A stretch of DNA of 64,000 nt, from positions 3,686-67,685 of IMG/VR virus record IMGVR_UViG_3300045988_136686; one strand, written 5' to 3'. This document shows positions 8,664-62,816 of this stretch, piece after piece; position 1 is the stretch's first letter, and every line of letters begins with the position of its first letter. The stretch is from a virus. The position numbers were made by a program, and so were the translations under genes. The notes under the pieces are model-generated. The model ran no database searches. It had not been told where the DNA came from and was given only the letters and a program-made list of their open reading frames with translations.

Positions 8664-8736
8664 AGGTTGAAGTGGGATTCAAACCCACGAATAACGGTTT
8701 TGCAGACCGTTGCGTTAATCACTTCGCCATTCAACC
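8664..8736 (-). tRNA. tRNA-Cys(GCA)
   Basis: Reverse complement is GGTTGAATGGCGAAGTGATTAACGCAACGGTCTGCAAAACCGTTATTCGTGGGTTTGAATCCCACTTCAACC. Anticodon loop is CTGCAAA between stems ACGGT/ACCGT. Confidence 0.85.
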
Positions 8737-31112: not shown

Positions 31113-31127
31113 ATCTTTCTCTTTTTG

Positions 31128-31212
31128 TTCGGCAGGCGGGACTCGAACCCGCAACTGTATATTCGCTCCTTATACTCGACTTATACCGCTCTCCCGTTTG
31201 AACCACTGCCGA
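31128..31212 (-). tRNA. tRNA-like gene, 85 nt, aberrant anticodon arm, isotype unresolved
   Basis: The reverse complement has acceptor TCGGCAG/CTGCCGA, D-arm GTTC-AAACGGGA-GAGC with G18G19, and T-arm GCGGG-TTCGAGT-CCCGC. The 34 nt between position 26 and the T-stem do not give a canonical U33 7-nt loop. Confidence 0.5.
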
Positions 31213-36418: not shown

Positions 36419-36488
36419 AGCTTATATTAGGTATTGGTTTAATCTCTGTTTTTATTTATCTTTGTTCTGTTGTTGTGATACAAAAGTA

Positions 36489-36523
36489 ATACTATTTAGT
36501 ATAAAATCAATACCAAATAGTAT
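36489..36523. promoter_or_regulatory. two operator-like 14-bp palindromes in the divergent control region
   Basis: ATACTATTTAGTAT (36489-36502) and ATACCAAATAGTAT (36510-36523), centres 21 bp apart, between divergent genes. Confidence 0.5.
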
Positions 36524-36555
36524 AAAAATATATAGTGTTTAGAATTATTAACAAT

Positions 36556-36870
36556 ATGACTATTAACGAAAGATTCTCAGAAATTCTCAAAACGAAAAGA
36601 ATTAGCGTCAAAGAAGCTGCCTCCATTATTGGGAAATCAGAAGTGTATATTAGGAAACTAATTCGTCCCGGAGAAAGTTTCGGTATAGAACCTGTTCTTT
36701 TAATCCTAAATAGTATCGATGGAATAAACCCAGATTGGTTATTGAGAGGTAAGGGTGAAATGTTTTTAGATAATAACACCCCAGAGAATGCAGCCCCGAT
36801 AACACAGGAACGCTTGTTTTCTGTCATCGAAAGCCAACAAAGGACAATCGAAAACCTTTCAAAAAAATAG
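36556..36870 (+). CDS. HTH transcriptional regulator (repressor/Cro-like)
   Basis: MTINERFSEILKTKRISVKEAASIIGKSEVYIRKL...PDWLLRGKGEMF. The track start at 36535 is GTG. Confidence 0.7.
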   Translation: MTINERFSEILKTKRISVKEAASIIGKSEVYIRKLIRPGESFGIEPVLLILNSIDGINPDWLLRGKGEMFLDNNTPENAAPITQERLFSVIESQQRTIENLSKK

Positions 36871-37329
36871 TTTTCTATATTATATGAGCAATCTTCCAAT
36901 AGTTCCCCTGCAACAGATGACTGTTTTCCAACCCGAATCCGACGGGCAGGGGAATATAGTATAATGGAAAGCTGTCTGAACTACTTTTGACAAAATTTGC
37001 CAATCCTTTTCTCTCTCCATTTTTTGTTCGTTTCTATTTTATTGAACTTGGTGAAGCGTGCCCGGTTGCCGAATTGCCGGATATTACTTACACGTCACGA
37101 CTTCGTTACTTCACCCCGACCGATCGCAAGTCTCGGCGTTCCCGCTATTGCGACTCTCGGTGTTCGATTCCGTTATTCATTACGCCAATAAGCTAACTTT
37201 TATTAGGTATTTGTATTTTTAATTTTATTTACTACCTTTGTTGTATTAACACAATACAAAGATACAGAATATTTCTGCAAAATATACAGATAAAACAGAA
37301 AATATTTGGATATTATATATATTTAACAC

Positions 37330-37860
37330 ATGAACGCCGCACAAAGATTAGAAGCCATTCTGAATTACTATGGTATAAATGCTAAGTCATTATCTGAGAA
37401 ATGTGGATATGGTAGGCCGCAAGGAATATACGATGTTCAAAATGGGAAAACAAAAGAAATTTCAACCACAATGGCAAACAAGATTTTATCTGTATTCCCT
37501 GAATTAAATAGAGTGTGGCTTCTCACAGGAGAGGGAAATATGATTAATGAAAGAAATAATTCAAGCATTATTGATAGCAACAATAACAATAGAGGAATTA
37601 TACAAAATAGTCATGGAAATATCAATAATGGTAATATTTCCATATCTTTGCCGGAAAGAGGTCAGCAAAAAATTATTGATCCAGACGGAAGGGTCACAAT
37701 AGAGAATACCAGTTCAGGCGCTCATGATTACCTGAACGAAATAAATAGACTTAACCAGAGGATACAAGACCTTGAAAGAATTATCAGCGGACATGAAGCT
37801 ACAATAAAGTCGAAAGACGATTTAATATGTATATTGAGGAGCGCATTAGATAAGAAATGA
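37330..37860 (+). CDS. HTH transcriptional regulator (CI-like) with coiled-coil C-terminus
   Basis: RLEAILNYYGINAKSLSEKCGY...RVWLLTGEGNMI. Same family signature as 36556..36870. Confidence 0.7.
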   Translation: MNAAQRLEAILNYYGINAKSLSEKCGYGRPQGIYDVQNGKTKEISTTMANKILSVFPELNRVWLLTGEGNMINERNNSSIIDSNNNNRGIIQNSHGNINNGNISISLPERGQQKIIDPDGRVTIENTSSGAHDYLNEINRLNQRIQDLERIISGHEATIKSKDDLICILRSALDKK

Positions 37861-37975
37861 TTTTTAAGTTTTATTGCTTCTAAATATAGCGAATATAACA
37901 ATGATTCTTTATACTAAAAACTTAGTTTTACAACATAATTTATAAGCAGATTCATACCTTAAAATATCAAATCCT

Positions 37976-39070
37976 ATGGACTTTAAAGATTCAATACAAC
38001 AACTATCTGAAAGAATAGCCAAACAACAAGATGCTATTGTAACGGAAGAGGGAACAAAAAATGCATTCATTATGCCGATGATTGCAGCACTCGGATATGA
38101 CATATTTAATCCATTTGAAGTCGTTCCAGAATTAGACTGCGACCTCATCAAGAAAAAAGGAGAAAAGATAGACTATGCCATAATGAAAGAAGAAAATCCT
38201 ATACTCCTTATAGAATGCAAGCATTGTAAACAAGACCTCAACTTACACGATACACAATTACAGAAATATTTCGTGGCTTCAAAAGCCAGATTCGGAGTAC
38301 TTACAAACGGTATAGAATATAGATTCTATACAGATCTTGACAAGCCCAATATTATGGACGAGAAACCTTTCTTGGTTGTAAATATGTTGGCGCTTACGGA
38401 TGCCGATGTGGAACAATTAAAGAAATTCAGTAAATCATATTATAATGAGGAGGAAATTTTAAGTACCGCCAACGAATTAAAATATGCTATTTCGATAAAG
38501 TCTATATTAAACAATGAGTTTAAGCAACCGTCACCCGATTTTGTTCGATTGCTTGCCAAACAGGCATACGACGGGCAAATTACACAGAAAATAATAGAGC
38601 AATTCACACCTATTATAAAACGATCTGTTCAAAGTATTATAAATGACACAATTTCAGACAGGCTGAATGTCGCCATTAAGACGAATGACGACAAAACAAA
38701 ACAGGAAGAAGATAGTACACAAAATGCAAAAGAAGAACTTCCTGATGGTGTTGTGTTCAGTGACAGAGATTCAGGAATTGTTACTACACAAGAGGAGATA
38801 GATGCTTATAATATTATAAGAAGCATATTGAGAAAAAGTATAGATGCGCAAAGAATAACTTATAAAGACAACAAGACATACTTTGTTGTAAACATAGATA
38901 ACGGCTATTGGTGGATATGCAGATTCTATTTCGGTAGTCGAAAAAAGCAAATATGTTTTCCTACGGACAATTACAAATCAAAAGAAATGTTCGAAATAGA
39001 AACGATAGATGACATCTTCAACTATGAAGATAAACTAATTGAATCATTGAAAATGGCTTTAAGAGAATAA
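37976..39070 (+). CDS. PD-(D/E)xK nuclease-fold protein (type I restriction HsdR N-terminal-like domain), paralog A
   Basis: 364 aa. EEGTKNAFIMPMIAALGY, KIDYAIM (D), LLIECKH (ExK), QLQKYF and GVLTNGIEYRFY. About three quarters identical to 60363..61523 over the first 60 aa by my manual alignment. Confidence 0.65.
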   Translation: MDFKDSIQQLSERIAKQQDAIVTEEGTKNAFIMPMIAALGYDIFNPFEVVPELDCDLIKKKGEKIDYAIMKEENPILLIECKHCKQDLNLHDTQLQKYFVASKARFGVLTNGIEYRFYTDLDKPNIMDEKPFLVVNMLALTDADVEQLKKFSKSYYNEEEILSTANELKYAISIKSILNNEFKQPSPDFVRLLAKQAYDGQITQKIIEQFTPIIKRSVQSIINDTISDRLNVAIKTNDDKTKQEEDSTQNAKEELPDGVVFSDRDSGIVTTQEEIDAYNIIRSILRKSIDAQRITYKDNKTYFVVNIDNGYWWICRFYFGSRKKQICFPTDNYKSKEMFEIETIDDIFNYEDKLIESLKMALRE

Positions 39071-39094
39071 TTAATTTATTAAAATTATCAAGTT

Positions 39095-39598
39095 ATGAAA
39101 AATCTTACATTACTCTTATTCAACATCTTACTATTAGCTTTTACCTCTTGCACACAGACAAATGAAGACAAAGCTCGCAGTTTAATAGAAGATCAACTTA
39201 AAAAAACAATGAATGATTGGAGCAGCTACGAATTTGTAGAGATGACACCCCTCGATAGCTCTTTCAGCGTACTATCAGACAACGAAGAATATTATAATCT
39301 TGGATTGAAGTTAAAAGTTTTAGACGCAAAATCAAATTACTTTATTTCAAATGTTAGTTCCGATTACCGAAACATGGACATGTGGACAGATAGTGCGAAA
39401 CAGGTAATTGCAGAGATGGAATCAGTAAACAAAAGAATGGACGAAATTCAATCATCATTTGTCCCAGAACATAATGGCTGGTGGACTAATTTCACTTGTA
39501 GAGGAAATAACAAATTAGGTCAAAAGGTTATATCAAAGACACGTTATTATTTTAACAAGGAAATTACGGAAATAACAGATACTAAAAAGGTTGAATAG
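39095..39598 (+). CDS. lipoprotein
   Basis: 167 aa. Lipobox LLLAFTSC. Confidence 0.65.
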   Translation: MKNLTLLLFNILLLAFTSCTQTNEDKARSLIEDQLKKTMNDWSSYEFVEMTPLDSSFSVLSDNEEYYNLGLKLKVLDAKSNYFISNVSSDYRNMDMWTDSAKQVIAEMESVNKRMDEIQSSFVPEHNGWWTNFTCRGNNKLGQKVISKTRYYFNKEITEITDTKKVE

Positions 39599-39722
39599 TT
39601 GTGTCCAAATTTAGATAAGTCATGAAGAAGATAGTTGAGAAATAGTGACGGAAAAGAAATAGGTATGCTTTTTAGTTGCTATGCTTTTAAATACATAAAA
39701 TAGTATTTATTCGCTATAATAC

Positions 39723-41018
39723 TCACTCTATCTCTTTCAACACATCTAACTTGATTTCATCATCTATGTCACGATAACGGGCAAATGCCTTGCTGCCCTC
39801 TACATGACCGCTCATAGACCCGATAATATTCGGGTCTTTTACTTTTTTATAAATATTCCCGATAAATGTACGACGTGCGAGGTGCGAGCTGGCAATCTCA
39901 TATATAGGCTTTTGCTCCTCTTTCTGCGTTACCGGATTTATTACGGTGACTTTTCTGTCGATGCCCGCCATTCTTAAAATCTTCTTGATGGAATCATTGT
40001 ATTTTTGCTCAGAGATAAAGGGGAAAAGTGTACGTCCTCCATATTCCTTGTACTTTTCCAATATTTCAATCGCTTTTTTAGTCAAAGGCACACGAGCATA
40101 TTCCTGATTATCCCCTTTCGTTTTTGTCGGAACATATTCAATAGCCCCGTCATTGATGTTTTCACGAGTTAACCTGTACAAATCACTTACTCTACAACCA
40201 ATCATACATTGAAAGACAAATATATCACGCTGTATGGCAAGAAAAGGATTGTTCGGCATTGGAAAATTGTACACCCTGTCACGCTCTTCTAAGGTAAGGA
40301 AATAAGGCCTCCCATATATTTGCTCCTTTATGGAATAATTTGCAAAAGGGTTGGTCGTTGTCTCCCCCATTCTCACTGCCCAAATATAGAACACCCTTAA
40401 CTTCGTCATCATGTTAGCAATAGTATTTCTACCTCTCGGCGATAACTTCTTGACTCCCTCATATAACGACGGGTATAATTCTGCTAATCTATACTCGTTT
40501 TTTAGATAATCTTCGAAATTAGACAAGTCAAATGCAGATATTTCGAGGCTCCACCTGAATTTTCCTCCATTAAAAATTTCGTAATTTTCATACCGGATCA
40601 TTATCCGCTTTAAAACATCATAATGTTCCTCTCGCTTCTCATCGTATTGTTTATAGATTAGGAATTTGTCAAATATATCGAAGAAATCATCATTAACAGG
40701 TGTTTCACCATTCACTCTACGCTGCATGGCATCACGCAACCATTCGCTCGTTGGCTGGTAGTCGTCTCCTCTTTCCTCCCATGTCCGAAGTATAAGAGAC
40801 TTTAATTCACTCACTTTTTCGTTGAAAATTCGTCTCTCTTTATCCGGGTACAATGCCCTCGATTTTATTTCTTCTCTCTTGTTGTCGAAAAGATCTACGT
40901 TTATCTGTAAATCGCTTACATAATATAATAATTTTGCCACCGGAGTAGATAGTCGGAAACGTACATTTACTATGTTATTTTTTTTGCTGGAACGAACGTA
41001 TGCTTTAACGGTTGCCAT
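39723..41018 (-). CDS. int: tyrosine recombinase / phage integrase
   Basis: Start trimmed to MATVKAYVR (the track start at 41045 is TTG). Catalytic SHLARRTF (HxxR) and FARYRD Tyr region. Confidence 0.85.
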   Translation of the reverse strand: MATVKAYVRSSKKNNIVNVRFRLSTPVAKLLYYVSDLQINVDLFDNKREEIKSRALYPDKERRIFNEKVSELKSLILRTWEERGDDYQPTSEWLRDAMQRRVNGETPVNDDFFDIFDKFLIYKQYDEKREEHYDVLKRIMIRYENYEIFNGGKFRWSLEISAFDLSNFEDYLKNEYRLAELYPSLYEGVKKLSPRGRNTIANMMTKLRVFYIWAVRMGETTTNPFANYSIKEQIYGRPYFLTLEERDRVYNFPMPNNPFLAIQRDIFVFQCMIGCRVSDLYRLTRENINDGAIEYVPTKTKGDNQEYARVPLTKKAIEILEKYKEYGGRTLFPFISEQKYNDSIKKILRMAGIDRKVTVINPVTQKEEQKPIYEIASSHLARRTFIGNIYKKVKDPNIIGSMSGHVEGSKAFARYRDIDDEIKLDVLKEIE

Positions 41019-41196
41019 AATTCCATTGCATTTTGTTTTGTGCAAAGTAAGTAATTATTTGCACAAATGAAGCACAAATTAAACTCAAAATATGTGTTAA
41101 ATCACACTATTAAACATACAACGAACCTAAATATAACAGCCAAAAGCCCGTATTTATCGGGATATAAAGCAAAATGAATGTTAAAACGCTTTTTAC

Positions 41197-41262: not shown

Positions 41263-41309
41263 AACATTTTAAATATGCACAATATTTGCACAAGATATTA
41301 TAATCCTAT

Positions 41310-41507
41310 TTACTCTTTCTCTTCCAAAGTTACATCAATTCCTACGATATCACAATATTTAAGGAAGTTGTTCAAGTTGACATTCTTCCCACTTTCAATG
41401 GCAATGACTGTTCCAAAGTTCATACCCTGTTTCCAGATATTATATTGGGACAGCCCCTTTTCTTCGCGAATCTTACGCACTTGTTTCGATAATTCTTCTA
41501 TTGTCAT
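41310..41507 (-). CDS. XRE-family HTH protein
   Basis: 65 aa. LSKQVRKIREEKGLSQYNIWKQGMNFGTVIAIESGK. Confidence 0.75.
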   Translation of the reverse strand: MTIEELSKQVRKIREEKGLSQYNIWKQGMNFGTVIAIESGKNVNLNNFLKYCDIVGIDVTLEEKE

Positions 41508-41803
41508 ACTCCTATTAATTCCTTCTTTATCGCCTCTAAAAATGCGATAGATGTTAATACCGTATTCCTATAATTATAATCACTACCTGCTGCAATTGCA
41601 TTCTTACGACCGTCTAAAATCAGCGTATCAATGAACAACACCATTTGCCGAACCGTAATATTGCCGATGTCTGCCGAGAATGTCGATAGCGATGTATAAT
41701 ACTTCATAGCCTGTTTTAAAAGCCCCCGTATTTTAGTCTTATCAGGATTTTTACCGGTAATACGCTTAATGCTGATCTTCGCGGAGAGATTCGACCCTGA
41801 CAA
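41504..41803 (-). CDS. hypothetical protein, 3' part of a reading frame interrupted by TAG
   Basis: The track start is TTG. The same frame is open upstream through a TAG at 41837-41839 to an ATG at 41971 (MKREFPLFIVDH...). Confidence 0.45.
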   Translation of the reverse strand: MSGSNLSAKISIKRITGKNPDKTKIRGLLKQAMKYYTSLSTFSADIGNITVRQMVLFIDTLILDGRKNAIAAGSDYNYRNTVLTSIAFLEAIKKELIGV

Positions 41804-41975
41804 TCCGGGCTCTATGCGGTAATCTTCTCCGACTTCCTAAACAATACCGTCCATATACTCGACTTTGGCGATGAATCCATTGTCTATGTCCGAACAGTAT
41901 ATGAAGTCGACTTCTCCGAACTTGTGCGCCCGGTTATGGTCTACAATGAATAATGGAAATTCCCTTTTCATAATT

Positions 41976-42425
41976 TTATAGAATGGTTACAAATTCTTCT
42001 CCGATATTGAAATTACGGTTATACTTCCATGTGCTATTGTCGTTTTTCCTTTTTGCTAATTGAATTTCAACCGTCATATCGTTGTTTATTAGAAATGTTG
42101 CCGACCATTGTGATTGGGTAGACGGATAATCGTAACCCAATATTCGCTTGTATTCGTCCTCCGTAATTTCGTTTTCAAACCAGACTGTTTTGCCAGATTC
42201 AGAAGATATACGATTTAACGACAATAAAACACCTTTAATCTCAATATTCAGCCCGTCAGGATTTTCTTCTATCACACGCCGTGCTATTTCTGTGCGTTCT
42301 TCTTTGTTTGTTCCTGCAAACCCGTTATGAGAGGTAGATTTATTGGCATTGTCATACTTGGCATTCGTTTCGTCGATTATCACATCTTTACGACCACTGA
42401 TTAAGTACTTAATTTGAGTTTTCAT
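41976..42425 (-). CDS. hypothetical protein
   Basis: 149 aa. First gene of a three-gene unit next to attP. Confidence 0.55.
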   Translation of the reverse strand: MKTQIKYLISGRKDVIIDETNAKYDNANKSTSHNGFAGTNKEERTEIARRVIEENPDGLNIEIKGVLLSLNRISSESGKTVWFENEITEDEYKRILGYDYPSTQSQWSATFLINNDMTVEIQLAKRKNDNSTWKYNRNFNIGEEFVTIL

Positions 42426-56083: not shown

Positions 56084-59000
56084 CTATAAATCTTTAGTAT
56101 TCCTATTGACTTGTGCTATATCGGATTTTATATCAATTAATAATTTCGTATATTTTGCAATGTCTTCTAAGTAGCTATTCGTAATCACATGTTGATTAAG
56201 AATGTTATTTAGTATAGAATTGCTATTAGTTGATACAGATAAAAGAGAATTTAGAGAGATTACGGCTGAAATCATTTGGTTTTTGATTTCTTCACCAGAA
56301 AGCTGCAACGCTGTAAACCGGCCGTTTAATTCCGTTGCTGTATCTTGTGACATGGTTTCAAAACCTCCGGCTGTCGACTTTTGTTCGGTGGTAGAACTTT
56401 CTCCCATGAGACTATCAGCCCAACCGAATTGAGCATCTATTTCTTGTTGAAGCTGTTCAGCCATGTTGTTGATGTAATCTTGTTCCCATTGAGAAAGCAC
56501 GTTGTCGGCATAAAATTGTTGCAACTTAGTGCGTATTTCCTCCATTTTATTTGAGGATTTAATTGCTGCCTTAATGCTCTCTGTTACCATTTGTTGCATC
56601 ATCTGTTTTACAACATCTTTTGCAGATTTAGCCCTATTCTCGCCAGAAGCCCATGCATCTGCATAAGCTTCTGCAAAGTTGTCAATAGCACTTTTTAGGT
56701 CTTCACCAAATATGACATCGATAGCTTTTTCTTTGTTATCAGAAATGAGATTGTTTATTTCGTCAATTTGATTTTCCCATTCTTTTATTCTGTCGCTATC
56801 TGTATTCTTTTTATCTTTTTCTTCTTTAATTTGATTTTGAATAAGTACTTTTTGTTGTTCTAGCAATTTATTTTGGTCTTCAATCAAGCTGGAAGCACTC
56901 TTTCCGTAAGCAGTTTCAATGGACTTGCCTAACTTTTCATACGAACGGTCAAGTGTATCTACCTGATCTTGTAATTTCTGAATCCGTTTTTCATTTTTTG
57001 CGTCGTGGATTTTTGCGATAGAGGAAGCAAGAGAGGAGACAAGACCGATGGCAGCACCAGCAGCAGAACCTATCGGTCCAAATATAGCACCTGCTTCTGC
57101 CCCTTGCATAGCTGAATTGAGGCCGTCCATAGCCACATTGATACCTTCGGCAATGCCTGACAGTGTATCAGATCCGAAAGCCTCTCCGAGATTTGAAAAT
57201 GTGTCGGAAAGGAATTGGGCTACACTTAATACCTCACTTAATCCACTTCTTATTTCTTCAAGTCCATCTTGCAATTTTTTTGTGTTTGAACCGGCATCGA
57301 ATACTTTTTTAAGACCATTAGCTAGTTTGTTAAACCCCGTTTCAGATTGATCTGCGGAATTACGGACATTATCTATACCTTTTCTAATTCGTTCTAATTC
57401 TTCGGGAGATTTACGCAATGTGTCGAAGGTCTCTTTTGTCATACCAAATTCAAGACCTTTGTTTTCGTCCCATTCGCCTGATTGCAAGAATTGGAATGCT
57501 CGTTCAGCTTCATTAGCAATGAGACGCATATCTGCAACTGTGTGTTGACGCATATCGTCAAACAATTTACTTATGGCAGACGTAGATTTATTCGCCTCTA
57601 TATCCAAATCAGATAGTGCCCTTTTTGTTTCTTCGTCAATAGACTTCTGTTCCCATTCGTTTTTGCCTACCTTACGAGATTCGCCTTGCTCAATAATAGC
57701 ATTACGCTTTTCATAATAGTTCCCGTAAGCGGCAAGATAATCGTTCATTGCGTTAATTTCATCATCGAGAATTTCTTTGGTCTGTTTATTCTTATTCTTT
57801 TCATTTAACCTATTTGCGGTATCAATATTTTCCTGTTGTTCAGTTGTTAGTCCATTCTCATTAAGCTTGGAGGGTTCAATCTTAGCTACTTTGTTTAACT
57901 CGGCCAGCTCTTTCTCTTTCTTTTTAATTTCTTTTTTCTGTTCTTCATAATAGTAGTTAATTTGCTTCAATTTCTTATCTTTACCTTCTTCCCAGAGGGA
58001 GATTTCTTTCTCTTGATTTTTTTTACGAAGCTCAAGAAGTTCATCAACAAGTTTCTGCTCGGCCTCTTTTTGCTCTTTTGCTTGCTTATCTTCAGCCGCT
58101 TTATCAGATTTGGTTTTAGGCAGCTTTGCACGGAGTGCGTCAATTCGTGATTGTAACGCATTGTATTCCTTGCTTCCGCTTACGGTTTCTCCCTGCTCTT
58201 TCTCTAATTTTGAGATTTGTGTTTTGACTTCATTGATTACTCTCAAATCTTTCTCACGTTCAAGTATAGTGTCTTGAAGCGACTTGATATAAGCTTCTTG
58301 TTGATCCACTGCTTCTTTTGTTCCGCTGCCGTCTGCAAGAGCCTTTTTTAATGATGCAAGTGAGGTTTCAGCCTTCTTGATTTCTTCTTCAAGTTGGGAG
58401 ATGGATTTACCTTCGGTGGAAAATGGCTCATTTGCTGTCTGTTGAGAGGTATTTATACTTGTAACGCCAAACTTTTCACGGGCTTTTCCATCTAAATCCT
58501 CTGTTATTTTTTGCGCTTCTCGGATATTGGAGATATATGTATCAATACGTGAATCCGCAAAAATCGTACCTTTGTCTTGTATTTCATTTAGTTTGTCTTG
58601 GATCGCAGCATCCAAATCTCTTCGTTCCAATATGGCATGGTAGATTTCTGAATAGAGTTTTGCACCTTCTTTATCTCCTAACTCGCTATATAGGCGGTCT
58701 TGTATCTTTCCGAGATTATCGGACATTATGTTGTCCAACCAATCTTCCTGCTGCGACTTGAATTGCTGGTATTGTCTTGCCCCGTAAGAATCTGTGATTG
58801 CTTTTGTGAGTTTTTTATAAGCTTCTTCCGTGAGTCCAACCTTATTTATTTCTTCTTCGAGTCCATCATAATACTTGCTATATCCTGCAACAATTTTTTC
58901 TTTGACGGTATTATATTCATCTGTACCTTCTTTTAATGAAGACAATTCTCCATTGAGCTTAGCAAGTTCCCTTTGCTCAGATAAGGCTGCTTTCTCAGAT

Positions 59001-60172
59001 TCCTTTCCCGCAGCATCCAGCCTTTCCAGTGCCTTTTCTGCTTCTGTTTGATAAGTGACTAATTTATAAATGCCCAAACCTAGTGCTGCTACTGCCGCTG
59101 CTACTGCGACATATGGGTTGGCAAGTAAAGTCTTGTTCAGTGCAGCTTGCGCAACTTGCAATAATTTCGTGCGAGTAGCAGCCAAAGCTTCTGCATTTGA
59201 TAATGTTATTCCTGAAGCTGTTGCAAGACTTTGATTTAATGCGGACTGAGCTAATACGGCGGAATATACTTTTTGTAAAGCTGTTATAGTAATCAATGCA
59301 GCTTTATACGCTCCGTATGTTACGACGATTTCAAGCAAGGTTTTTCCGACAGTTTCATAGTTTTCTATCAAATAAGAAACGCTGGATAATGCATCATTGA
59401 TAATACCTTCATTCGCTTTGCCGATGTCGTTCAACATCATCGAGAAACTATCTCCTATGTTAGAAATCTGTCCGGTAATGGTTTTGCTTTGTTCTTGCAT
59501 TAAGTTAAAGAACATACCACCCTCGTTGGTAAGGTTCTGTATGACTTTCTGAACCTCTGGAAACCCTATCATACCAGCTTCTACCATTCCTTTGATTTCA
59601 CTTTCAGCTACTCCAAATTCTTTGGCAAGTTCTTTTATCATTGGAATACCTCGTCCAGTGAATTGGTTTAGGTCCTGTGTATAAAGTCGACCTTGTGTCA
59701 TAGTTGTACCATAGAGATATACTAAGTCTCCCAAAGGTTGTGAAAGTCCGGCTGCAATGTTCCCTAATCGTATAAGAGTCTCGTTAACATCTTCGGCAGA
59801 AGTACCGTAAGCCAGTAATTGACGAGCTCCATTGGCAACACCTTGTAAATCGAATGGAGTTTTGGCGGCTGTTTCTGTGAGCTGAGCCATAAGGACGTTT
59901 GCCTTTTCACTACTTCCAAGCATAGTGGTAAAGGCGACCTCTAATTGTTGAAATTCACCTCTTACTTGTATAATATTTTGGATAAGTTCTTTTGCTGTAA
60001 AGCCAGCCCCAAAAGCTGCAGCTGCTTTCGTCATTTTGTTGAACATATCTTCTATGCCCAATCCATTTTTTTCTATTTCCTTAGAAGTATTGGTTACTCC
60101 GGTTTCTACTTCTCGTAGTTTACGAAGAAAATTAGAATTGTCGCCTGTTATATCAAAATGAAGTCCGGCCAT
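56084..60172 (-). CDS. tail tape measure protein
   Basis: 1362 aa, largely coiled-coil, with a hydrophobic Gly/Ala-rich segment (GAIFGPIGSAAGAAIGLV). Canonical position. Confidence 0.85.
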   Translation of the reverse strand: MAGLHFDITGDNSNFLRKLREVETGVTNTSKEIEKNGLGIEDMFNKMTKAAAAFGAGFTAKELIQNIIQVRGEFQQLEVAFTTMLGSSEKANVLMAQLTETAAKTPFDLQGVANGARQLLAYGTSAEDVNETLIRLGNIAAGLSQPLGDLVYLYGTTMTQGRLYTQDLNQFTGRGIPMIKELAKEFGVAESEIKGMVEAGMIGFPEVQKVIQNLTNEGGMFFNLMQEQSKTITGQISNIGDSFSMMLNDIGKANEGIINDALSSVSYLIENYETVGKTLLEIVVTYGAYKAALITITALQKVYSAVLAQSALNQSLATASGITLSNAEALAATRTKLLQVAQAALNKTLLANPYVAVAAAVAALGLGIYKLVTYQTEAEKALERLDAAGKESEKAALSEQRELAKLNGELSSLKEGTDEYNTVKEKIVAGYSKYYDGLEEEINKVGLTEEAYKKLTKAITDSYGARQYQQFKSQQEDWLDNIMSDNLGKIQDRLYSELGDKEGAKLYSEIYHAILERRDLDAAIQDKLNEIQDKGTIFADSRIDTYISNIREAQKITEDLDGKAREKFGVTSINTSQQTANEPFSTEGKSISQLEEEIKKAETSLASLKKALADGSGTKEAVDQQEAYIKSLQDTILEREKDLRVINEVKTQISKLEKEQGETVSGSKEYNALQSRIDALRAKLPKTKSDKAAEDKQAKEQKEAEQKLVDELLELRKKNQEKEISLWEEGKDKKLKQINYYYEEQKKEIKKKEKELAELNKVAKIEPSKLNENGLTTEQQENIDTANRLNEKNKNKQTKEILDDEINAMNDYLAAYGNYYEKRNAIIEQGESRKVGKNEWEQKSIDEETKRALSDLDIEANKSTSAISKLFDDMRQHTVADMRLIANEAERAFQFLQSGEWDENKGLEFGMTKETFDTLRKSPEELERIRKGIDNVRNSADQSETGFNKLANGLKKVFDAGSNTKKLQDGLEEIRSGLSEVLSVAQFLSDTFSNLGEAFGSDTLSGIAEGINVAMDGLNSAMQGAEAGAIFGPIGSAAGAAIGLVSSLASSIAKIHDAKNEKRIQKLQDQVDTLDRSYEKLGKSIETAYGKSASSLIEDQNKLLEQQKVLIQNQIKEEKDKKNTDSDRIKEWENQIDEINNLISDNKEKAIDVIFGEDLKSAIDNFAEAYADAWASGENRAKSAKDVVKQMMQQMVTESIKAAIKSSNKMEEIRTKLQQFYADNVLSQWEQDYINNMAEQLQQEIDAQFGWADSLMGESSTTEQKSTAGGFETMSQDTATELNGRFTALQLSGEEIKNQMISAVISLNSLLSVSTNSNSILNNILNQHVITNSYLEDIAKYTKLLIDIKSDIAQVNRNTKDL

Positions 60173-60362
60173 GAGTCTTTTCGATTAAAGGGGGTAGATG
60201 TAACATCACATCATTTGCAAATATACAAAAGTGTATGAAATTCATATACTTTTGATAAAATAGAATAGAGTTAATAAAGTTTAACTAATGTGTGAGTATA
60301 AATATTTTAATAAATGATTATTGTATTATACTTTTGACGAAACAATCTTAACAGCATAAGAT

Positions 60363-61523
60363 ATGGATTTCAAAGATACAATTCAACAGATTGTAGAGAA
60401 AATTGCTAAACAGAAGGATAGCATAGCAACGGAAGAAGCGACAAAAAACTCTTTTGTAATGCCTGTGATAGCAGCATTGGGATATGATGTATTCAATCCC
60501 TTTGAGGTTGTACCGGAAATGGATTGTGACTTAGTTAAGAGGAAAGGCGAAAAAATAGACTATGCCATAATGAAGGACGAAAATCCTATATTACTTATAG
60601 AATGCAAGCATTGTAAACAAAACTTGAATTTACATGACACTCAGTTACAAAGATATTTTGTCGCTTCAAAGGCTAGGTTTGGGGTCTTGACGAATGGAAT
60701 AGAATATCGCTTTTATACAGATTTAGAAAAGGTGAACATAATGGACGAAAAGCCGTTCCTTGTGGTGAATATGCTCGACTTATCGGACAACGATATTGAG
60801 CAACTAAAAAAGTTTCATAAGTCTTATTATAATGAGCAAGATATATTGAGTACGGCACAAGAGTTACAAATCACGATACAAGTAAAAGAAATGCTTAATC
60901 GTAATTTCCAAATGCCAGACGATGAATTTACACGTTATTTTGTCCGTAATCTTAATGATGGGAAATATACGGCAAAACTTGTGGACCAATATAGACCTAT
61001 TGTTAAGAAATCCATTGCTTCGGTGATTAACGATATTATATCCGACCGTTTGAATGTGGCTATGAAGAATGAGAATAAGGATGAAAAACAAATGCCACAG
61101 GAGGTTGAGAATGAAAATCAACAGCCGAACGAAATGAATGAAGAAAAACTTCCTGATGGTGTAGTATTTCAAGACCGAGAAAAAGGTATAGTTACTATAC
61201 AAGAGGAGATAGATGCCTATAATATCGTGCGTAGTATATTGAGGCAGTATGTAGATGTATCTCGTATTCAATATAACGACTACAAGACTTATTTTTCCGT
61301 GAACATAGATGGTAGTACATGGTGGTGGATTTGCCGCATTTATATAGGGAAACGGAGTAAAAAAATATGCTTGCCAAAGGATAACTACAAGACGAATGAA
61401 TGGATTGACATCGAGACTATCGATGATATTTTTAATTATGCCGATGGTCTTAAAGAGGGTCTTGATTTGGCATTGAAAGAGGCGAATTATTGGCTTGCAA
61501 AGAAAAATGAATTAGAAAAATGA
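60363..61523 (+). CDS. PD-(D/E)xK nuclease-fold protein (HsdR N-terminal-like domain), paralog B
   Basis: 386 aa. Same D...ExK...Q..Y...TNG motifs as 37976..39070. Antisense to the flanking tail genes. Confidence 0.65.
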   Translation: MDFKDTIQQIVEKIAKQKDSIATEEATKNSFVMPVIAALGYDVFNPFEVVPEMDCDLVKRKGEKIDYAIMKDENPILLIECKHCKQNLNLHDTQLQRYFVASKARFGVLTNGIEYRFYTDLEKVNIMDEKPFLVVNMLDLSDNDIEQLKKFHKSYYNEQDILSTAQELQITIQVKEMLNRNFQMPDDEFTRYFVRNLNDGKYTAKLVDQYRPIVKKSIASVINDIISDRLNVAMKNENKDEKQMPQEVENENQQPNEMNEEKLPDGVVFQDREKGIVTIQEEIDAYNIVRSILRQYVDVSRIQYNDYKTYFSVNIDGSTWWWICRIYIGKRSKKICLPKDNYKTNEWIDIETIDDIFNYADGLKEGLDLALKEANYWLAKKNELEK

Positions 61524-62014
61524 CAAACGTAACTAATACAAATTTTAGAATTATGAGAAAGTTTTTGCTAATCATAGTTTGTGCTTTATCCATTACATCT
61601 TGCTCAGATAATGATCCTGAGATATTATCAGTAATGATTAATGTAAAATGTGATAATAAAATTGCATCTCCTTCTTTGGTTCGCTTATATGAATATGAAA
61701 CAGCAAGAGACTTTGATGACAGCTATATGTCTACAATGGAGTACGGCGATTCTCAAGTTTTAAGAGATAAGTTGGGTAATGAGTTGACTCCCGCATATAC
61801 ATCTGACACGTTTTCTGGAATAAATATTTTTGAGGACATAAAAACAGGGGTATATTTGGCTGTAATACTTTATAAACCTGACGGCTTTACATGGCCGATG
61901 TTTTATTTTTATGGATATAAAGTAATTAATGTTGACGAGGATAATAACGCACTTTTACATAATATATGTTTTTCTTATAGTGAATACGACCGAGGTAAAT
62001 TCATTGAGTTTTAG
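61520..62014 (+). CDS. lipoprotein
   Basis: ATGA-coupled to the upstream gene. Lipobox MRKFLLIIVCALSITSC (internal ATG at 61553). Confidence 0.6.
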   Translation: MTNVTNTNFRIMRKFLLIIVCALSITSCSDNDPEILSVMINVKCDNKIASPSLVRLYEYETARDFDDSYMSTMEYGDSQVLRDKLGNELTPAYTSDTFSGINIFEDIKTGVYLAVILYKPDGFTWPMFYFYGYKVINVDEDNNALLHNICFSYSEYDRGKFIEF

Positions 62015-62727
62015 TCCCACTTCATTCCTTTTATTTTATCCATATTTTTAGGATCGTCCCCGTTTATAAATGTTCGGTCCGTAGATATATGATATTTTTT
62101 TATCTCATCGTCAGTAAGGTATATAGATGTTATGTAATCATTAAGTAACATATGCAGGTTGGCATAACTAATACCCCATACAACATAGTCCATAGTCCAG
62201 CCATAGCGTTCGCAGGCTATATCTATCAAAGTACCATAAATACTTTTACCTCCAAAGGTTATAGTGTTACACTTCTTTTTCTTGATTCTTGATATTTTTT
62301 CTTGTTCTTTTTTCTCAATATCAATCTTAAAGTGTTGAATAAACTGGTCAATGTTATCCTTTGATAACACTATTATGAATAGTTGAGCAAGTTCTTCATT
62401 CGATAGGTTGTCTTCAAATAGCTTTCGTCTTTCATTTATTAGGTGGCTATTGAATAATTCTTCCTTTTTATCGAATGTATGGTAAGACAATATTTTGCAT
62501 ATAATATCTCTTTTGGAATCGCATAATCGTAATGCTTCCATATATGGATTTAGAGAAAGGAAGTCTTTATTTATTTCTAAATTTTCGGTAAGACGTGATA
62601 AAAGGTATATTTTACCTAATGTGGCAGGGTATAAGTAGAATTGCATTTCTCCTATATGGAACTCATAAGGTCTTTCCATGATAGTATCTGCAATATCCAT
62701 TTCTATTATTTTCCCTTCTTTGTCCAT
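62011..62727 (-). CDS. hypothetical protein in tail assembly chaperone position
   Basis: Start trimmed to MDKEGKII, because the 5' part of the track ORF overlaps a tRNA. Confidence 0.5.
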   Translation of the reverse strand: MDKEGKIIEMDIADTIMERPYEFHIGEMQFYLYPATLGKIYLLSRLTENLEINKDFLSLNPYMEALRLCDSKRDIICKILSYHTFDKKEELFNSHLINERRKLFEDNLSNEELAQLFIIVLSKDNIDQFIQHFKIDIEKKEQEKISRIKKKKCNTITFGGKSIYGTLIDIACERYGWTMDYVVWGISYANLHMLLNDYITSIYLTDDEIKKYHISTDRTFINGDDPKNMDKIKGMKWD

Positions 62728-62745
62728 GCAAAATAAATTATATTG

Positions 62746-62816
62746 AGCGCAACTGTGGGGTCGAACCACAACTTTATACATGGAGTGTATATGTGCTACC
62801 GTTACACTAGATACGC
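62746..62816 (-). tRNA. tRNA, Gly(UCC)-like, with C at position 33
   Basis: Reverse complement is GCGTATCTAGTGTAACGGTAGCACATATACACTCCATGTATAAAGTTGTGGTTCGACCCCACAGTTGCGC plus T. Anticodon stem TATAC/GTATA, loop ACTCCAT. The GCG acceptor start and U73 fit Gly identity. Confidence 0.65.

What the first reader, a model, noticed from the sequence alone, without database searches (positions are those of the whole stretch)
37976..39598. Nuclease-fold protein plus lipoprotein behind the CI-like regulator: candidate lysogen-expressed exclusion or defence pair
The only sizeable plus-strand block in the window is HTH (36556), HTH (37330), a 364-aa protein and a 167-aa lipoprotein.

The 364-aa protein has a PD-(D/E)xK core of the HsdR N-terminal type: D in KIDYAIM, ExK in LLIECKH, then QKYF and TNGIEYRFY. 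Its C-terminal half is uncharacterised.

Genes transcribed with the repressor in a prophage are a classical location for superinfection-exclusion or abortive-infection functions (the rexAB logic).

A diverged second copy of the same two-gene architecture sits at 60363-62014. That implies a mobile, selectable module rather than a core phage function.
Basis: partly seen in the sequence, partly recalled or inferred. Interest (0 to 1): 0.8.

Follow-up and report, generated by a model that had tools for sequence, protein, structure and literature searches.

The report
Prophage nuclease with swappable envelope-protein gene
Two neighbouring prophages each carry an accessory module, a stand-alone restriction-type nuclease followed by an exchangeable surface or secreted protein gene, that most likely protects the lysogen from other phages, but this role is untested and the two genes are not an obligate pair.

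Summary
The ORFs are at 37976-39070 (364 aa) and 39095-39598 (167-aa lipoprotein), with a second set at 60363-61523 and 61520-62014. The nucleases are 66% identical; the lipoproteins are unrelated.

The N-terminus is an HsdR-type PD-(D/E)xK domain. D66, E80-x-K82 and QxxxY are invariant across three phyla. A helical region and an alpha/beta C-terminal domain with no significant structural match follow. There is no helicase motor and no adjacent hsdM or hsdS, so the database name "type I restriction endonuclease" is wrong.

The family (phrog_4225) sits directly after the prophage repressor in Streptococcus, Lactococcus, Enterococcus, Fusobacterium, Corynebacterium, Klebsiella, Salmonella and E. 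coli. That is the rexAB position.

The second copy belongs to an adjacent second prophage. It is an insertion between the tape-measure gene and a chaperone-like gene.

In gut Bacteroidales phages the next gene is almost always an envelope protein: 11 of 12 unrelated families, against 6 of 84 in the background. It is swapped between near-identical phages and survives deletion of the nuclease.

Best reading: a lysogen-expressed defence nuclease next to an independent exclusion or conversion cassette slot. Function is untested and no PADLOC model matches.

The parts
36556..36870 (+). First HTH regulator of the plus-strand lysogeny block (Cro/CI-type). It is divergent from the minus-strand early genes.
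   Evidence: ORF. PHROG phrog_8 'transcriptional regulator' at 8.9e-7 and phrog_4 'transcriptional repressor' at 2.6e-5. A TAnnTTTG motif lies at 36457. The segment 36484-36900 is replaced in near-identical relatives.
37233..37240 (+). Bacteroides-type -7 promoter motif (TACCTTTG) upstream of the HTH gene at 37330. It is the likely start of an HTH2-nucA-lipoA transcript.
   Evidence: There is no TAnnTTTG motif in the 115-bp gap between HTH2 and nucA. This is a motif match only; transcription was not measured.
37330..37860 (+). Second HTH regulator (176 aa) directly upstream of nucA. It fills the repressor-like position.
   Evidence: phrog_8, 3.3e-5. In the near-identical relatives L019 and L021 this segment (window 37328-37951) is replaced. 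In L019 the replacement is a 203-aa CI-type repressor with HTH and an S24-like GESMYPEY motif (read by eye, not scanned against Pfam), while nucA stays 100% identical.
37976..39070 (+). nucA: a stand-alone HsdR-N-type PD-(D/E)xK nuclease. Its parts are a nuclease domain at about residues 1-136, a helical region at 142-243, a disordered linker at 237-259 and an alpha/beta C-terminal domain at 259-363.
39095..39598 (+). lipoA: a 167-aa predicted lipoprotein in an exchangeable cassette downstream of nucA.
   Evidence: Signal peptide plus Cys19. PHROG phrog_21933 of unknown function at 5.5e-19. The segment 39089-39724 is replaced by a 192-aa secreted-protein gene in L019, L020, L023, L024 and L030.
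39723..41045 (-). Tyrosine integrase at the end of the first prophage. It converges on the nucA-lipoA block.
   Evidence: Pfam Phage_integrase at 1.3e-8 and PHROG phrog_1 at 1.6e-26. Alignment of four related IMG/VR loci (L017, L024, L025, L030) to the window stops at window 41018, where each locus also ends.
56084..60172 (-). Tape-measure protein gene of the second prophage. It is the left flank of the nucB-lipoB insertion.
   Evidence: The homologous 1398-aa neighbour in Phocaeicola dorei carries Pfam TMP_3.
60247..60336 (+). Two Bacteroides-type -7 promoter motifs (TACTTTTG at 60247 and 60329) in the 190-bp gap before nucB. This looks like the module's own promoter.
   Evidence: The window-wide frequency is 0.66 per kb per strand. 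Motif match only.
60363..61523 (+). nucB: a paralogue of nucA (66% identity) inserted, on the opposite strand, between the tape-measure gene and the chaperone-like gene.
   Evidence: The same position is found in P. dorei and B. fragilis prophages. The insertion is absent in more distant relatives, and the nuclease is truncated in L098, L101 and L131.
61520..62014 (+). lipoB: a 164-aa predicted lipoprotein (ITS-C followed by SDNDPE). It is an exchangeable cassette unrelated to lipoA.
   Evidence: It is replaced by 231-aa or 273-aa lipoprotein genes in near-identical phages.
62011..62724 (-). 237-aa protein of the tail module (phrog_11996, unknown function, called 'chaperone-like' here from its position only). 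It is the right flank of the insertion.

Best explanation
The window holds two adjacent prophage-like elements. Each carries an accessory (moron-type) module made of two independent parts.

Part 1 is a stand-alone, ATP-independent nuclease of the HsdR-N PD-(D/E)xK type. It is fused to a helical region and a small alpha/beta C-terminal domain. In the first phage it is read with the repressor-like HTH gene, which is the rexAB position. In the second phage it has its own promoter motifs and lies between the tape-measure gene and a chaperone-like gene, on the opposite strand.

The nuclease is inferred to be made in the lysogen and to cut incoming foreign DNA, as a restriction-like defence that needs no adjacent methyltransferase. 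The more variable helical and C-terminal parts are the likely determinants of what is recognised. One possibility is a DNA modification or structure that the host and prophage lack, as in Type IV enzymes.

Part 2 is a slot directly downstream that holds one of many unrelated lipoprotein or secreted-protein genes. These are inferred to act at the cell envelope, either by superinfection exclusion of the Ltp/Llp/Cor kind or by another lysogenic-conversion function. They turn over quickly by recombination at the conserved nuclease gene.

What is shown: the gene structure, the domain identity, the invariant catalytic motifs, the conserved position, dispensability and cassette exchange. What is inferred: expression in the lysogen, nuclease activity, the defence role, the basis of self/non-self discrimination and the role of the envelope proteins.
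For: Nuclease identity:
- Pfam HSDR_N and HSDR_N_2 score above their cut-offs.
- D66, E80, K82, Q94, Y98 and TNG are invariant in 45 sequences from three phyla.
- The AF2 model has pLDDT 84.5, and its best PDB matches are BpuSI and a V. vulnificus HsdR fragment.

Lysogeny-operon position:
- The gene lies directly after the repressor, or after the repressor plus ImmA, and on the same strand. This holds in Streptococcus IPP25, Fusobacterium FNU_1P, Klebsiella KpF5, Corynebacterium Juicebox, Enterococcus EG-TP1 and Lacticaseibacillus P7.1.
- It also holds in Salmonella, Lactococcus and E. coli prophages.
- In the window a promoter motif lies before HTH2 and none lies between HTH2 and nucA.

Accessory and mobile nature:
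- The tape-measure gene directly abuts the chaperone-like gene in the distant relatives whose gene order I read (L152, L166, L168), and the tblastn coordinates of L145, L146, L149-L151 and L153 place it likewise.
- The nuclease is cut down to 65 codons, just before D66, in L098, L101 and L131.
- The family occurs in 40 of 5426 E. coli genomes.
- A two-gene islet sits between housekeeping genes in L008.
- All 19 matches in the phage database cover at least 80% of the protein, and every record I examined has an integrase or a repressor annotated within the flank examined.

Independence of the second gene:
- lipoA and lipoB are unrelated.
- Phages with 97-99% DNA identity swap the cassette while the nuclease stays 100% identical.
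- The 12 distinct downstream families are 11 exported proteins plus one two-TM membrane protein. The background is 6 of 84 families, Fisher p = 1.6e-9.
- The lipoprotein gene is kept when the nuclease is deleted.
- There is no such partner in other phyla.

Specificity region:
- The nuclease domain is 85% identical between nucA and nucB, against 54% for the helical region and 66% for the C-terminal domain. Column entropy is lowest at residues 21-120.
Against: - No experiment or paper links this family to defence.
- PADLOC gives only domain-level matches to type IIG enzymes, best 1e-6 among 38 diverse members.
- The C-terminal domain has no significant structural match. The best PDB TM-scores are 0.43-0.48 at E > 0.1, and the best BFVD E-value is 1.6e-3. 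There is therefore no evidence for a DNA- or modification-binding role.
- In 72 mostly environmental Bacteroidota genomes the neighbours are heterogeneous. Pfam HTH_3, the commonest family, matches only 8 upstream genes. The other neighbours include ion channels, response regulators and tRNA synthetases, so the family is not confined to mobile elements.
- Some host prophages carry orphan DNA methylases elsewhere, so a conventional methylation-sensitive mode is not excluded.
- Promoters are motif matches only, and no terminator was found after lipoA.
- In L008 a homologue of one cassette sits next to the nuclease in convergent orientation. This hints at a linkage that simple co-transcription does not explain.
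Confidence: 0.55

Rival explanations
1. A true two-component system. The envelope protein and the nuclease work together, for example as surface sensing or blocking coupled to cytoplasmic cleavage, and the pairing itself is under selection.
For: In gut Bacteroidales phages the gene after the nuclease is an envelope protein in 12 of 12 distinct families. Gaps are about 0-39 bp or the genes overlap. The architecture recurs at two different genomic positions. A chromosomal islet keeps the nuclease next to a 51%-identical homologue of one cassette even in convergent orientation.
Against: The partners are mutually unrelated families, are swapped between near-identical phages, and are retained after deletion of the nuclease. 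Nuclease homologues in Firmicutes, Fusobacteria, Actinobacteria and Enterobacterales have no such partner. Lipoproteins and secreted proteins have no obvious route to signal to a cytoplasmic enzyme. In a wider Bacteroidota sample, exported neighbours are about as common upstream (26 of 72) as downstream (32 of 73).
Confidence: 0.12
2. A selfish homing-type nuclease. The gene spreads by cutting phage genomes that lack it and being copied in, dragging adjacent cargo along. Any protection of the lysogen is a by-product.
For: There is presence/absence polymorphism at a precise site between two otherwise adjacent genes. The nuclease gene stays 94-100% conserved while both flanks are mosaic. It appears at two unrelated insertion sites and as a chromosomal islet.
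Against: It carries promoter motifs of its own and lies on the opposite strand to the lytic genes. Across phyla it sits in the repressor operon, not inside or beside a conserved target gene. To my knowledge, HsdR-type domains are not among known homing endonuclease families. The family is stably chromosomal in some genera.
Confidence: 0.1
3. A cellular or phage DNA-metabolism nuclease (repair, recombination, or prophage excision and induction control) with no role in excluding other elements.
For: Many environmental Bacteroidota carry the gene among ordinary chromosomal genes, with some genus-level synteny. The position next to the integrase and repressor could also suit a lysogeny-control function.
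Against: It is dispensable in near-identical phages and absent from related phages. It is rare and patchy in E. coli at 0.7% of genomes. Neighbourhoods are not conserved across taxa. The second copy lies in a tail-gene cluster, far from any lysogeny control region.
Confidence: 0.13
4. The restriction half of a conventional restriction-modification system whose methyltransferase is encoded elsewhere in the prophage or host.
For: NCBI names the family 'type I restriction endonuclease'. Several carrier prophages encode orphan DNA methylases a few kb away. PADLOC's nearest models are type IIG enzymes.
Against: No helicase or ATPase motor domain and no hsdM or hsdS gene was found next to either window copy or in the flanks examined in other taxa. 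The methylases in carrier prophages differ in family and position, and none is annotated in the flanks shown for IPP25, FNU_1P, Juicebox and EG-TP1. Methyltransferases in the rest of the window were not searched for.
Confidence: 0.1

Closest known systems
N-terminal nuclease domain of Type I restriction subunit HsdR (EcoR124I; V. vulnificus HsdR fragment 3h1t) and of the type IIG enzyme BpuSI (3s1s)
   Same: The same Pfam families (HSDR_N, HSDR_N_2) match. The same motifs are present: D, ExK and the QxxxY motif that follows them. These are the best structural matches.
   Different: There is no SF2 helicase/ATPase motor and no methyltransferase or specificity domain. No hsdM or hsdS gene is nearby. 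The protein is 364 aa with a helical region and a small alpha/beta C-terminal domain that those enzymes lack.
Exclusion genes in the repressor operon of lambdoid phages (lambda rexAB, Rac sieB, BTP1 bstA). Named from established knowledge and not tested here.
   Same: The genomic logic matches: directly downstream of the prophage repressor and co-oriented with it, dispensable, and variable between related phages.
   Different: No match to any PADLOC model beyond the nuclease domain; I did not compare the protein with RexA/RexB, SieB or BstA directly or check that PADLOC models them. The predicted biochemistry is DNA cleavage. That differs from a membrane-depolarising Abi (Rex), a membrane protein (SieB) or a KilA-N protein (BstA).
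Single-chain Type IV (modification-dependent) restriction enzymes such as Mrr or SauUSI-type enzymes
   Same: It is a PD-(D/E)xK nuclease fused to a non-catalytic domain, has no adjacent methyltransferase, and is solitary and patchily distributed. One JGI record names a homologue 'predicted type IV restriction endonuclease'.
   Different: No recognised modified-base-binding domain is present. The C-terminal domain has no significant structural relative. Modification dependence is untested.
Superinfection-exclusion lipoproteins of temperate phages (Ltp of S. thermophilus TP-J34, PMC3952083; Llp of T5 and Cor of phi80/HK022, from general knowledge)
   Same: lipoA is a small lipoprotein encoded between the repressor and the integrase of a temperate phage. 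lipoB is a small lipoprotein encoded in a tail-module moron.
   Different: Neither protein matches a Pfam family, and the only PHROG match (lipoA, phrog_21933) has no known function, so no similarity to a characterised exclusion protein was seen. The host is a Gram-negative Bacteroidales, where an acidic stretch after the Cys suggests surface export (inference from general knowledge of Bacteroidota lipoprotein export). No phenotype is known.
Morons as defined in HK97/HK022-type phages (general knowledge)
   Same: nucB-lipoB sits between two genes that are adjacent in related phages. It is on the opposite strand and has promoter motifs of its own.
   Different: No terminator-like hairpin was found after the module. 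The module has an internal exchangeable slot.
DefenseFinder system 'FS_HsdR_like' from PICI satellites (Fillol-Salom et al. 2022, Cell). Recalled from memory only.
   Same: It may be the same kind of protein: a short 'HsdR-like' single-gene defence carried by a mobile element in Enterobacterales.
   Different: This could not be tested. The paper and the HMM are not available here. If its HMM matches nucA, then defence by a relative has already been shown and novelty drops.

Membership tests
PD-(D/E)xK nucleases of the HSDR_N type (Pfam PF04313/PF13588) | Profile match above the curated threshold | tested here: met
   HSDR_N scores 55 bits (cut-off 25.1) and HSDR_N_2 scores 35.9 bits (cut-off 25) for nucA. 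nucB scores similarly.
PD-(D/E)xK nucleases of the HSDR_N type (Pfam PF04313/PF13588) | Catalytic D ... E-x-K triad and the following QxxxY motif are conserved | tested here: met
   D66, E80, K82, Q94 and Y98 are invariant in 45 sequences from three phyla.
PD-(D/E)xK nucleases of the HSDR_N type (Pfam PF04313/PF13588) | Fold resembles solved HsdR-type nuclease domains | tested here: met
   The Foldseek top hits are BpuSI 3s1s (E 2.3e-3, probability 1.0) and the HsdR fragment 3h1t (E 1.3e-2). The E-values are modest.
Type I restriction enzyme, R subunit (the name NCBI gives the family) | SF2 helicase/ATPase translocase domains | tested here: not met
   The protein is 364 aa. There is no ResIII or Helicase_C match or any other Pfam match beyond the nuclease domain. 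The model shows only a helical linker and a 105-aa alpha/beta domain.
Type I restriction enzyme, R subunit (the name NCBI gives the family) | Adjacent hsdM and hsdS genes | tested here: not met
   The neighbours in the window are HTH genes, a lipoprotein gene, an integrase, a tape-measure gene and a tail gene. No hsdM or hsdS is annotated in the flanks shown for the phage and prophage loci examined.
Type IV (modification-dependent) restriction enzyme | Solitary nuclease without a cognate adjacent methyltransferase | tested here: met
   Same neighbourhood evidence.
Type IV (modification-dependent) restriction enzyme | A domain that recognises modified bases | tested here: inconclusive
   The C-terminal domain model has pLDDT 90.5. 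It has no PDB match with E < 0.1, and its best TM-scores of 0.43-0.48 are to frataxin, YjbR, YdhG and MotA-CTD folds.
Type IV (modification-dependent) restriction enzyme | Cleaves only modified DNA | not testable with these tools
   This needs enzyme assays or plating of modified versus unmodified phages.
Repressor-operon exclusion genes (rexAB logic) | Immediately downstream of the prophage repressor and co-oriented with it | tested here: met
   In the window the order is HTH2 (37330-37860), then nucA, with the only promoter motif upstream of HTH2. The same position is seen in the 10 phage or prophage loci from other phyla that I examined.
Repressor-operon exclusion genes (rexAB logic) | Protects the lysogen from other phages | not testable with these tools
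   No experiment is available, and no paper on the family's function was found.
Moron (accessory insertion in a phage genome) | The flanking genes are adjacent in related phages that lack the element | tested here: met
   In L152, L166 and L168 the tape-measure gene starts 34-68 bp after the chaperone-like gene; the tblastn coordinates of L145, L146, L149-L151 and L153 place it about 70-150 bp after.
Moron (accessory insertion in a phage genome) | Own promoter and terminator | tested here: inconclusive
   Two TAnnTTTG motifs lie before nucB. No terminator-like hairpin follows lipoB or lipoA.
Superinfection-exclusion lipoproteins (Ltp/Llp/Cor type) | Signal peptide with a lipobox cysteine, encoded by a temperate phage | tested here: met
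   lipoA has ...AFTS-C19 and lipoB has ...ITS-C. This is a motif reading only; no dedicated predictor was available.
Superinfection-exclusion lipoproteins (Ltp/Llp/Cor type) | Sequence relationship to a characterised exclusion lipoprotein | tested here: not met
   Only PHROGs of unknown function match (phrog_21933 for lipoA, none for lipoB), and there is no Pfam match.
Known or candidate defence systems in PADLOC-DB v2.0.0 | Full-length match to a system component model | tested here: not met
   The only matches cover the nuclease domain. Type IIG REase reaches at best 1e-6 among 38 diverse family members, and mad2 reaches 3.8e-5. There are no matches for either lipoprotein.
DefenseFinder FS_HsdR_like | Match to the system's HMM | not testable with these tools
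   The model and the paper are not available here.

The most novel reading that the evidence does not exclude
The conserved nuclease gene and the hypervariable envelope-protein slot form one evolving unit in gut Bacteroidales phages. The nuclease is a previously unrecognised, cross-phylum, single-gene immunity enzyme with a new sensor domain. Its conserved gene, or its own cutting activity, also serves as the recombination anchor that drives rapid exchange of surface-protein cassettes between phages. This would be a two-layer exclusion module with built-in diversification.
Probability: 0.12. Interest if true: 0.8.

Novelty: new variant of a known kind. Interest (0 to 1): 0.55.

Why it matters
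If the nuclease does protect lysogens, it would be a very widespread single-gene defence. It is carried in the repressor operon of temperate phages from Bacteroidota, Bacillota, Fusobacteriota, Actinomycetota and Pseudomonadota. It is mislabelled in databases as a Type I restriction subunit and is absent from PADLOC.

It is extremely common in human-gut Phocaeicola and Bacteroides prophages. One allele alone is indexed in 1550 blocks of the assembly collection searched. It could therefore shape which phages can infect dominant gut bacteria, which matters for phage therapy and microbiome engineering.

The adjacent slot, which cycles through at least a dozen unrelated lipoprotein or secreted-protein genes between near-identical phages, is a ready-made catalogue of candidate exclusion or surface-conversion factors in a group where almost none are characterised.

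E. coli and Salmonella homologues in the same position make the hypothesis cheap to test.

Tried and rejected
- Sequence search of the PDB gave nothing meaningful; the best hit was E 0.12 to an unrelated protein.
- Fold searches with the C-terminal domain alone, against the PDB and BFVD, gave only weak, non-significant resemblances to frataxin, YjbR, YdhG, MotA-CTD and DUF5655 folds. No function is assigned from them.
- A search of 1.84 billion cluster representatives with the C-terminal domain showed that it is almost always attached to the same nuclease. Rare fusions carry TerD or DUF4268. There is no informative alternative architecture.
- The sigma-70 promoter and terminator scan was no better than shuffled sequence and does not apply to Bacteroides. 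I used the Bacteroides TAnnTTTG motif instead.
- I looked for an RNA or tRNA remnant in the 460-bp spacer at 36871-37329, which contains a T-arm-like GGTGTTCGATTCC. There was no Rfam match at E <= 1, and the folding z-score was -0.27.
- I looked for att repeats between the left 2 kb of the window and the region beyond the integrase. No shared 12-mers were found.
- Ten literature searches on Pfam accessions, the COG number, 'Lp2 protein 6', HsdR-like and lysogeny-module terms found no functional study. The Fillol-Salom 2022 paper is not held.
- I rejected 'duplication within one phage'. The two copies sit in elements that occur separately in IMG/VR and in isolate genomes.
- I rejected 'Type I R subunit' (see the membership tests).
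- I considered that exported neighbours might be general in Bacteroidota. In a wide genome sample they are about as frequent upstream as downstream, so the strong enrichment claim is limited to the phage-borne gut Bacteroidales loci.
Full report
**What is in the window.**
- nucA is at 37976-39070 (364 aa).
- lipoA is at 39095-39598 (167 aa).
- nucB is at 60363-61523 (386 aa).
- lipoB is at 61520-62014 (164 aa) and overlaps nucB by 4 nt.

nucA and nucB are 66% identical over their whole length. The two downstream proteins share no detectable similarity. Both begin with a signal peptide that ends in a lipobox-like cysteine...AFTS-C in lipoA and ...ITS-C in lipoB.

Upstream of nucA on the same strand lie two HTH regulator genes, at 36556-36870 and 37330-37860. 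Downstream and convergent lies a tyrosine integrase at 39723-41045. nucB-lipoB lies on the strand opposite to its neighbours. Those neighbours are a 1362-aa tape-measure gene (56084-60172) and a 237-aa tail-module gene (62011-62724, phrog_11996).

**The nuclease.** Pfam HSDR_N (E 1.3e-14) and HSDR_N_2 (8.4e-9) match residues 24-125 above their curated thresholds. Nothing matches the C-terminal 230 residues.

I aligned 45 full-length homologues. Ten were Bacteroidales (66-91% identity), and the rest were streptococci and lactococci (about 40%) and Enterobacterales (about 28%). These residues are invariant in that alignment:
- E24, E25, T27 and K28;
- the catalytic D66 and E80-x-K82;
- Q94 and Y98, which form the QxxxY motif that follows the triad in HsdR enzymes (my knowledge of that family);
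- T110-N111-G112;
- in the C-terminal part, D298, Y302, W313 and R316.

An AlphaFold2 model built on this alignment has mean pLDDT 84.5. It shows an alpha/beta nuclease domain (about 1-136), a helical region (142-243), a disordered acidic linker (237-259) and a compact C-terminal domain (259-363). Foldseek against the PDB puts the type IIG enzyme BpuSI (E 2.3e-3) and a Vibrio vulnificus HsdR fragment (E 1.3e-2) first.

Modelled alone, the C-terminal domain has pLDDT 90.5. Its topology is helix, five strands, helix. It has no PDB match below E 0.1. The best TM-scores, 0.43-0.48, are to frataxin, YjbR, YdhG-like and MotA-CTD folds. The BFVD matches are also weak, 1.6e-3 at best. I therefore assign no function to it.

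A search of 1.84 billion cluster representatives with this domain alone found 1035 proteins. Those I scanned against Pfam carry it on the same nuclease, with rare TerD or DUF4268 fusions.

There is no helicase motor and no adjacent hsdM or hsdS gene. The name NCBI gives the family, 'type I restriction endonuclease', is therefore not correct for the protein as a whole.

**Where the family lives.** PHROGs contains it as phrog_4225, 'endonuclease', with a full-length match at E 2e-128. In the GenBank phage collection 19 records carry a homologue covering at least 80% of the protein at 30-55% identity. They span Porphyromonas, Fusobacterium, Streptococcus, Enterococcus, Clostridium, Lacticaseibacillus, Corynebacterium, Pseudomonas and Klebsiella phages.

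In each of the following the gene lies directly after the repressor, or after repressor plus ImmA-type metalloprotease. It is on the repressor's strand and mostly ahead of the integrase.
- Streptococcus IPP25, Fusobacterium FNU_1P, Klebsiella KpF5, Corynebacterium Juicebox, Enterococcus EG-TP1 and Lacticaseibacillus P7.1.
- Salmonella prophages, where the order is Cro, then a divergent HTH repressor, then the nuclease.
- Lactococcus prophages.
- E. coli prophages, next to racR or a CI-like gene.

This is the place lambda uses for rexAB and Rac uses for sieB (general knowledge). The one exception I examined is a Porphyromonas phage. There the gene sits beside a HicAB pair and an anti-CRISPR candidate, ahead of the neck and tape-measure genes.

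In E. coli the gene occurs in only 40 of 5426 complete genomes, so it is accessory.

The picture is less clean in a GTDB sample of 72 loci, mostly from environmental Bacteroidota such as Flavobacterium, Chitinophaga and Sphingobacterium. Pfam HTH_3, the commonest family, matches only 8 of the upstream genes there. Other neighbours include ion channels, response regulators, a staphylococcal-type nuclease and tRNA synthetases. The family is not confined to prophages.

**Two prophages, not one duplicated module.** IMG/VR holds 37-43 kb viral contigs that are 97-99% identical to window 31-41 kb and carry a 100% identical nucA. Four of them stop aligning, and end, at window 41018 in the integrase gene.

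The nucB arrangement is the standard layout of a very common Phocaeicola dorei and Bacteroides fragilis prophage family. That layout is a minus-strand tape-measure gene, then the plus-strand nuclease and small gene, then the minus-strand 237-aa gene. One allele is indexed in 1550 blocks of the assembly collection.

So the window most likely contains the integrase end of one element next to the tail end of another. I did not find att sites. I also did not establish that the first element is a complete phage, because no tape-measure-sized gene is visible in 1-41 kb.

**The module is dispensable and inserted.** I examined 80 relatives of the 237-aa flank gene.
- In the distant relatives L152, L166 and L168 the tape-measure gene starts 34-68 bp after the flank gene, and the tblastn coordinates of L145, L146, L149-L151 and L153 indicate the same. 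No nuclease match lies between the two genes in any of these.
- Near-identical relatives carry the nuclease.
- In three near-identical relatives (L098, L101, L131) the nuclease is cut down to its first 65 codons, ending just before D66, while the downstream lipoprotein gene is intact.

Two Bacteroides-type -7 promoter motifs (TAnnTTTG, general knowledge of Bacteroides promoters) lie in the 190 bp before nucB. The background is 0.66 per kb per strand. For nucA the nearest motif is upstream of HTH2, and none lies between HTH2 and nucA. That fits co-transcription with the regulator. These are motif matches only.

**The downstream gene is a cassette.** Among phages 97-99% identical to the first element, five replace the lipoA segment (39089-39724) with a 192-aa secreted-protein gene, and the nuclease stays 100% identical. 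One relative (L017) carries a 310-bp insertion just beyond lipoA that overlaps an extra 130-aa lipoprotein ORF. The two HTH genes are also swapped, once for a CI-type repressor with an S24-like motif read by eye.

In relatives of the second element, lipoB alternates with 231-aa and 273-aa lipoprotein genes.

Across the first set of 80 IMG/VR loci plus the window and the P. dorei loci, the gene immediately after the nuclease falls into 12 mutually unrelated families. Seven are lipoproteins, four have ordinary signal peptides and one is a two-TM membrane protein. Gaps are about 0-39 bp.

With the same crude predictor, 6 of 84 other gene families in the same loci are exported (Fisher p = 1.6e-9). 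The predictor is a home-made hydrophobicity and lipobox rule. Many loci are closely related, so I counted families and not loci.

None of the cassettes has a known function. Pfam finds DUF4468 and BDI_0842 in two of them, and the PHROG matches are to families of unknown function.

No such partner accompanies the nuclease in other phyla. In the wide Bacteroidota genome sample, exported neighbours are about as common upstream (26 of 72) as downstream (32 of 73).

One observation runs the other way. In a metagenomic Bacteroidales scaffold, a nuclease 86% identical to nucA sits between an aldehyde dehydrogenase gene and a UvrD-family helicase gene. Next to it, in convergent orientation, is a 51%-identical homologue of the 192-aa cassette.

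**Interpretation.** The best-supported account has two parts.

First, the nuclease is a lysogen-expressed accessory enzyme that is likely to cut incoming DNA. Its position, dispensability, patchy distribution and invariant active site support this. How it spares host and prophage DNA is unknown. No adjacent methyltransferase is present, which makes a modification- or structure-dependent (Type IV-like) mode the simplest idea, but nothing here tests it. The helical and C-terminal parts diverge faster than the nuclease domain (54% and 66% against 85% identity between nucA and nucB), as would be expected of a specificity module.

Second, the downstream slot holds independent envelope proteins. By analogy with Ltp, Llp and Cor they could block adsorption or DNA entry. 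They could equally serve some other lysogenic-conversion role.

I put about 0.55 on this overall account. The chance that the genes are accessory lysogeny cargo is much higher. Confidence is lower for the defence role itself and lower still for the lipoprotein's role. The rivals are an obligate two-component system, a homing-type selfish nuclease, a DNA-metabolism function, and a restriction enzyme with an unlinked methylase. Each keeps roughly 0.1.

**Comparison with known systems and novelty.** The protein family is already catalogued by Pfam domain, PHROG and NCBI name, but I found no functional study (ten searches). PADLOC v2 has no model for it. Thirty-eight diverse members give only domain-level hits to type IIG enzymes.

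From memory, DefenseFinder lists a single-gene 'FS_HsdR_like' system from enterobacterial PICIs (Fillol-Salom et al. 2022). I could not check whether it is this family. If it is, the defence role of a distant relative is already known.

Two findings appear to be new here. One is the cross-phylum constancy of the position after the repressor. The other is the tight association, in gut Bacteroidales phages, with a rapidly exchanged envelope-protein cassette.

I rate this a new variant of a known kind (prophage-borne restriction-like defence next to exclusion morons). Interest is about 0.55: prevalent and testable, but not conceptually surprising unless the coupling turns out to be functional.

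Noticed in passing
window 36871-37329: A 460-bp non-coding spacer between the two HTH genes looks G+C-richer than its surroundings by eye (composition not measured). It contains a T-arm-like GGTGTTCGATTCC and a TAnnTTTG motif at 36982. It is kept at 92-99% identity in relatives whose flanking HTH genes are swapped. There is no Rfam match at E <= 1, and it folds no better than shuffled sequence (z = -0.27).
   Followed up: partly
window 36484-36900 and 37328-37951; L019 4491-4865 and 5358-5969: The immunity region is mosaic. In phages otherwise 97-99% identical, both HTH genes are replaced by different regulators. In L019 one replacement is a 203-aa CI-type repressor with an S24-like GESMYPEY motif (read by eye, not scanned against Pfam). 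The nuclease between the variable segments stays 100% identical.
   Followed up: partly
window 1-41018 versus 41976-64000; L024 and L176 (IMG/VR contig 3300029552_000211): The window seems to join two prophage-like elements, the integrase end of one and the tail end of another. The same kind of adjacency recurs on a 72.8-kb IMG/VR contig. No att repeats were found. The first element shows no tape-measure-sized gene, so it may not be a complete tailed phage.
   Followed up: partly
L098 7950-8150, also L101 and L131: In three phages near-identical to the second element, the nuclease gene is truncated to 65 codons, ending just before the catalytic Asp. The 231-aa lipoprotein gene follows 20 bp later. 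This is a natural nuclease knock-out that keeps the promoter and the cassette.
   Followed up: yes
L155 7730-11252: In a more distant relative, the position right after the chaperone-like gene holds about 3.5 kb of unrelated minus-strand genes, including membrane proteins. No match to the window's tape-measure protein was found in this locus, so the tape-measure gene was not located. This suggests a general cargo hotspot.
   Followed up: no
L008 6001-7802: A chromosomal two-gene islet sits between an aldehyde dehydrogenase gene and a UvrD-family helicase gene. It holds a nuclease 86% identical to nucA and, in convergent orientation, a 51%-identical homologue of the 192-aa secreted cassette seen in phage L019.
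   Followed up: partly
window 14484-17165: An 893-aa head-morphogenesis-type protein also matches the PHROG for the Bxa ADP-ribosyltransferase (3.6e-56) and a head maturation protease PHROG.
   Followed up: no
window 5087-7165: A large amidoligase-family gene (phrog_2443, E 2e-181) lies near the terminase gene (1639-3150). An amidoligase is also annotated near the portal gene in the Porphyromonas phage that carries a nuclease homologue.
   Followed up: no
window 8515-8736, 31127-31212, 62745-62816: tRNA genes lie inside the phage regions: two at 8.5-8.7 kb (one tRNA-Cys, one with an odd anticodon loop) and a tRNA-Arg at 31.1 kb. ARAGORN also calls a tRNA-Gly at 62745-62816, between the chaperone-like gene and the next tail gene, but Rfam does not report it at its gathering score.
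   Followed up: no
window 41300-42425: Just beyond the integrase, reading the minus strand by eye suggests a small XRE-type HTH ORF (about 41310-41517). It is followed upstream by further small ORFs. These may be a toxin-antitoxin-like pair or junction cargo between the two elements.
   Followed up: no
proteins P0456 and P0509: Rare relatives fuse the nuclease and C-terminal domain to a TerD domain at the N-terminus (524 aa) or to DUF4268 at the C-terminus (494 aa).
   Followed up: no
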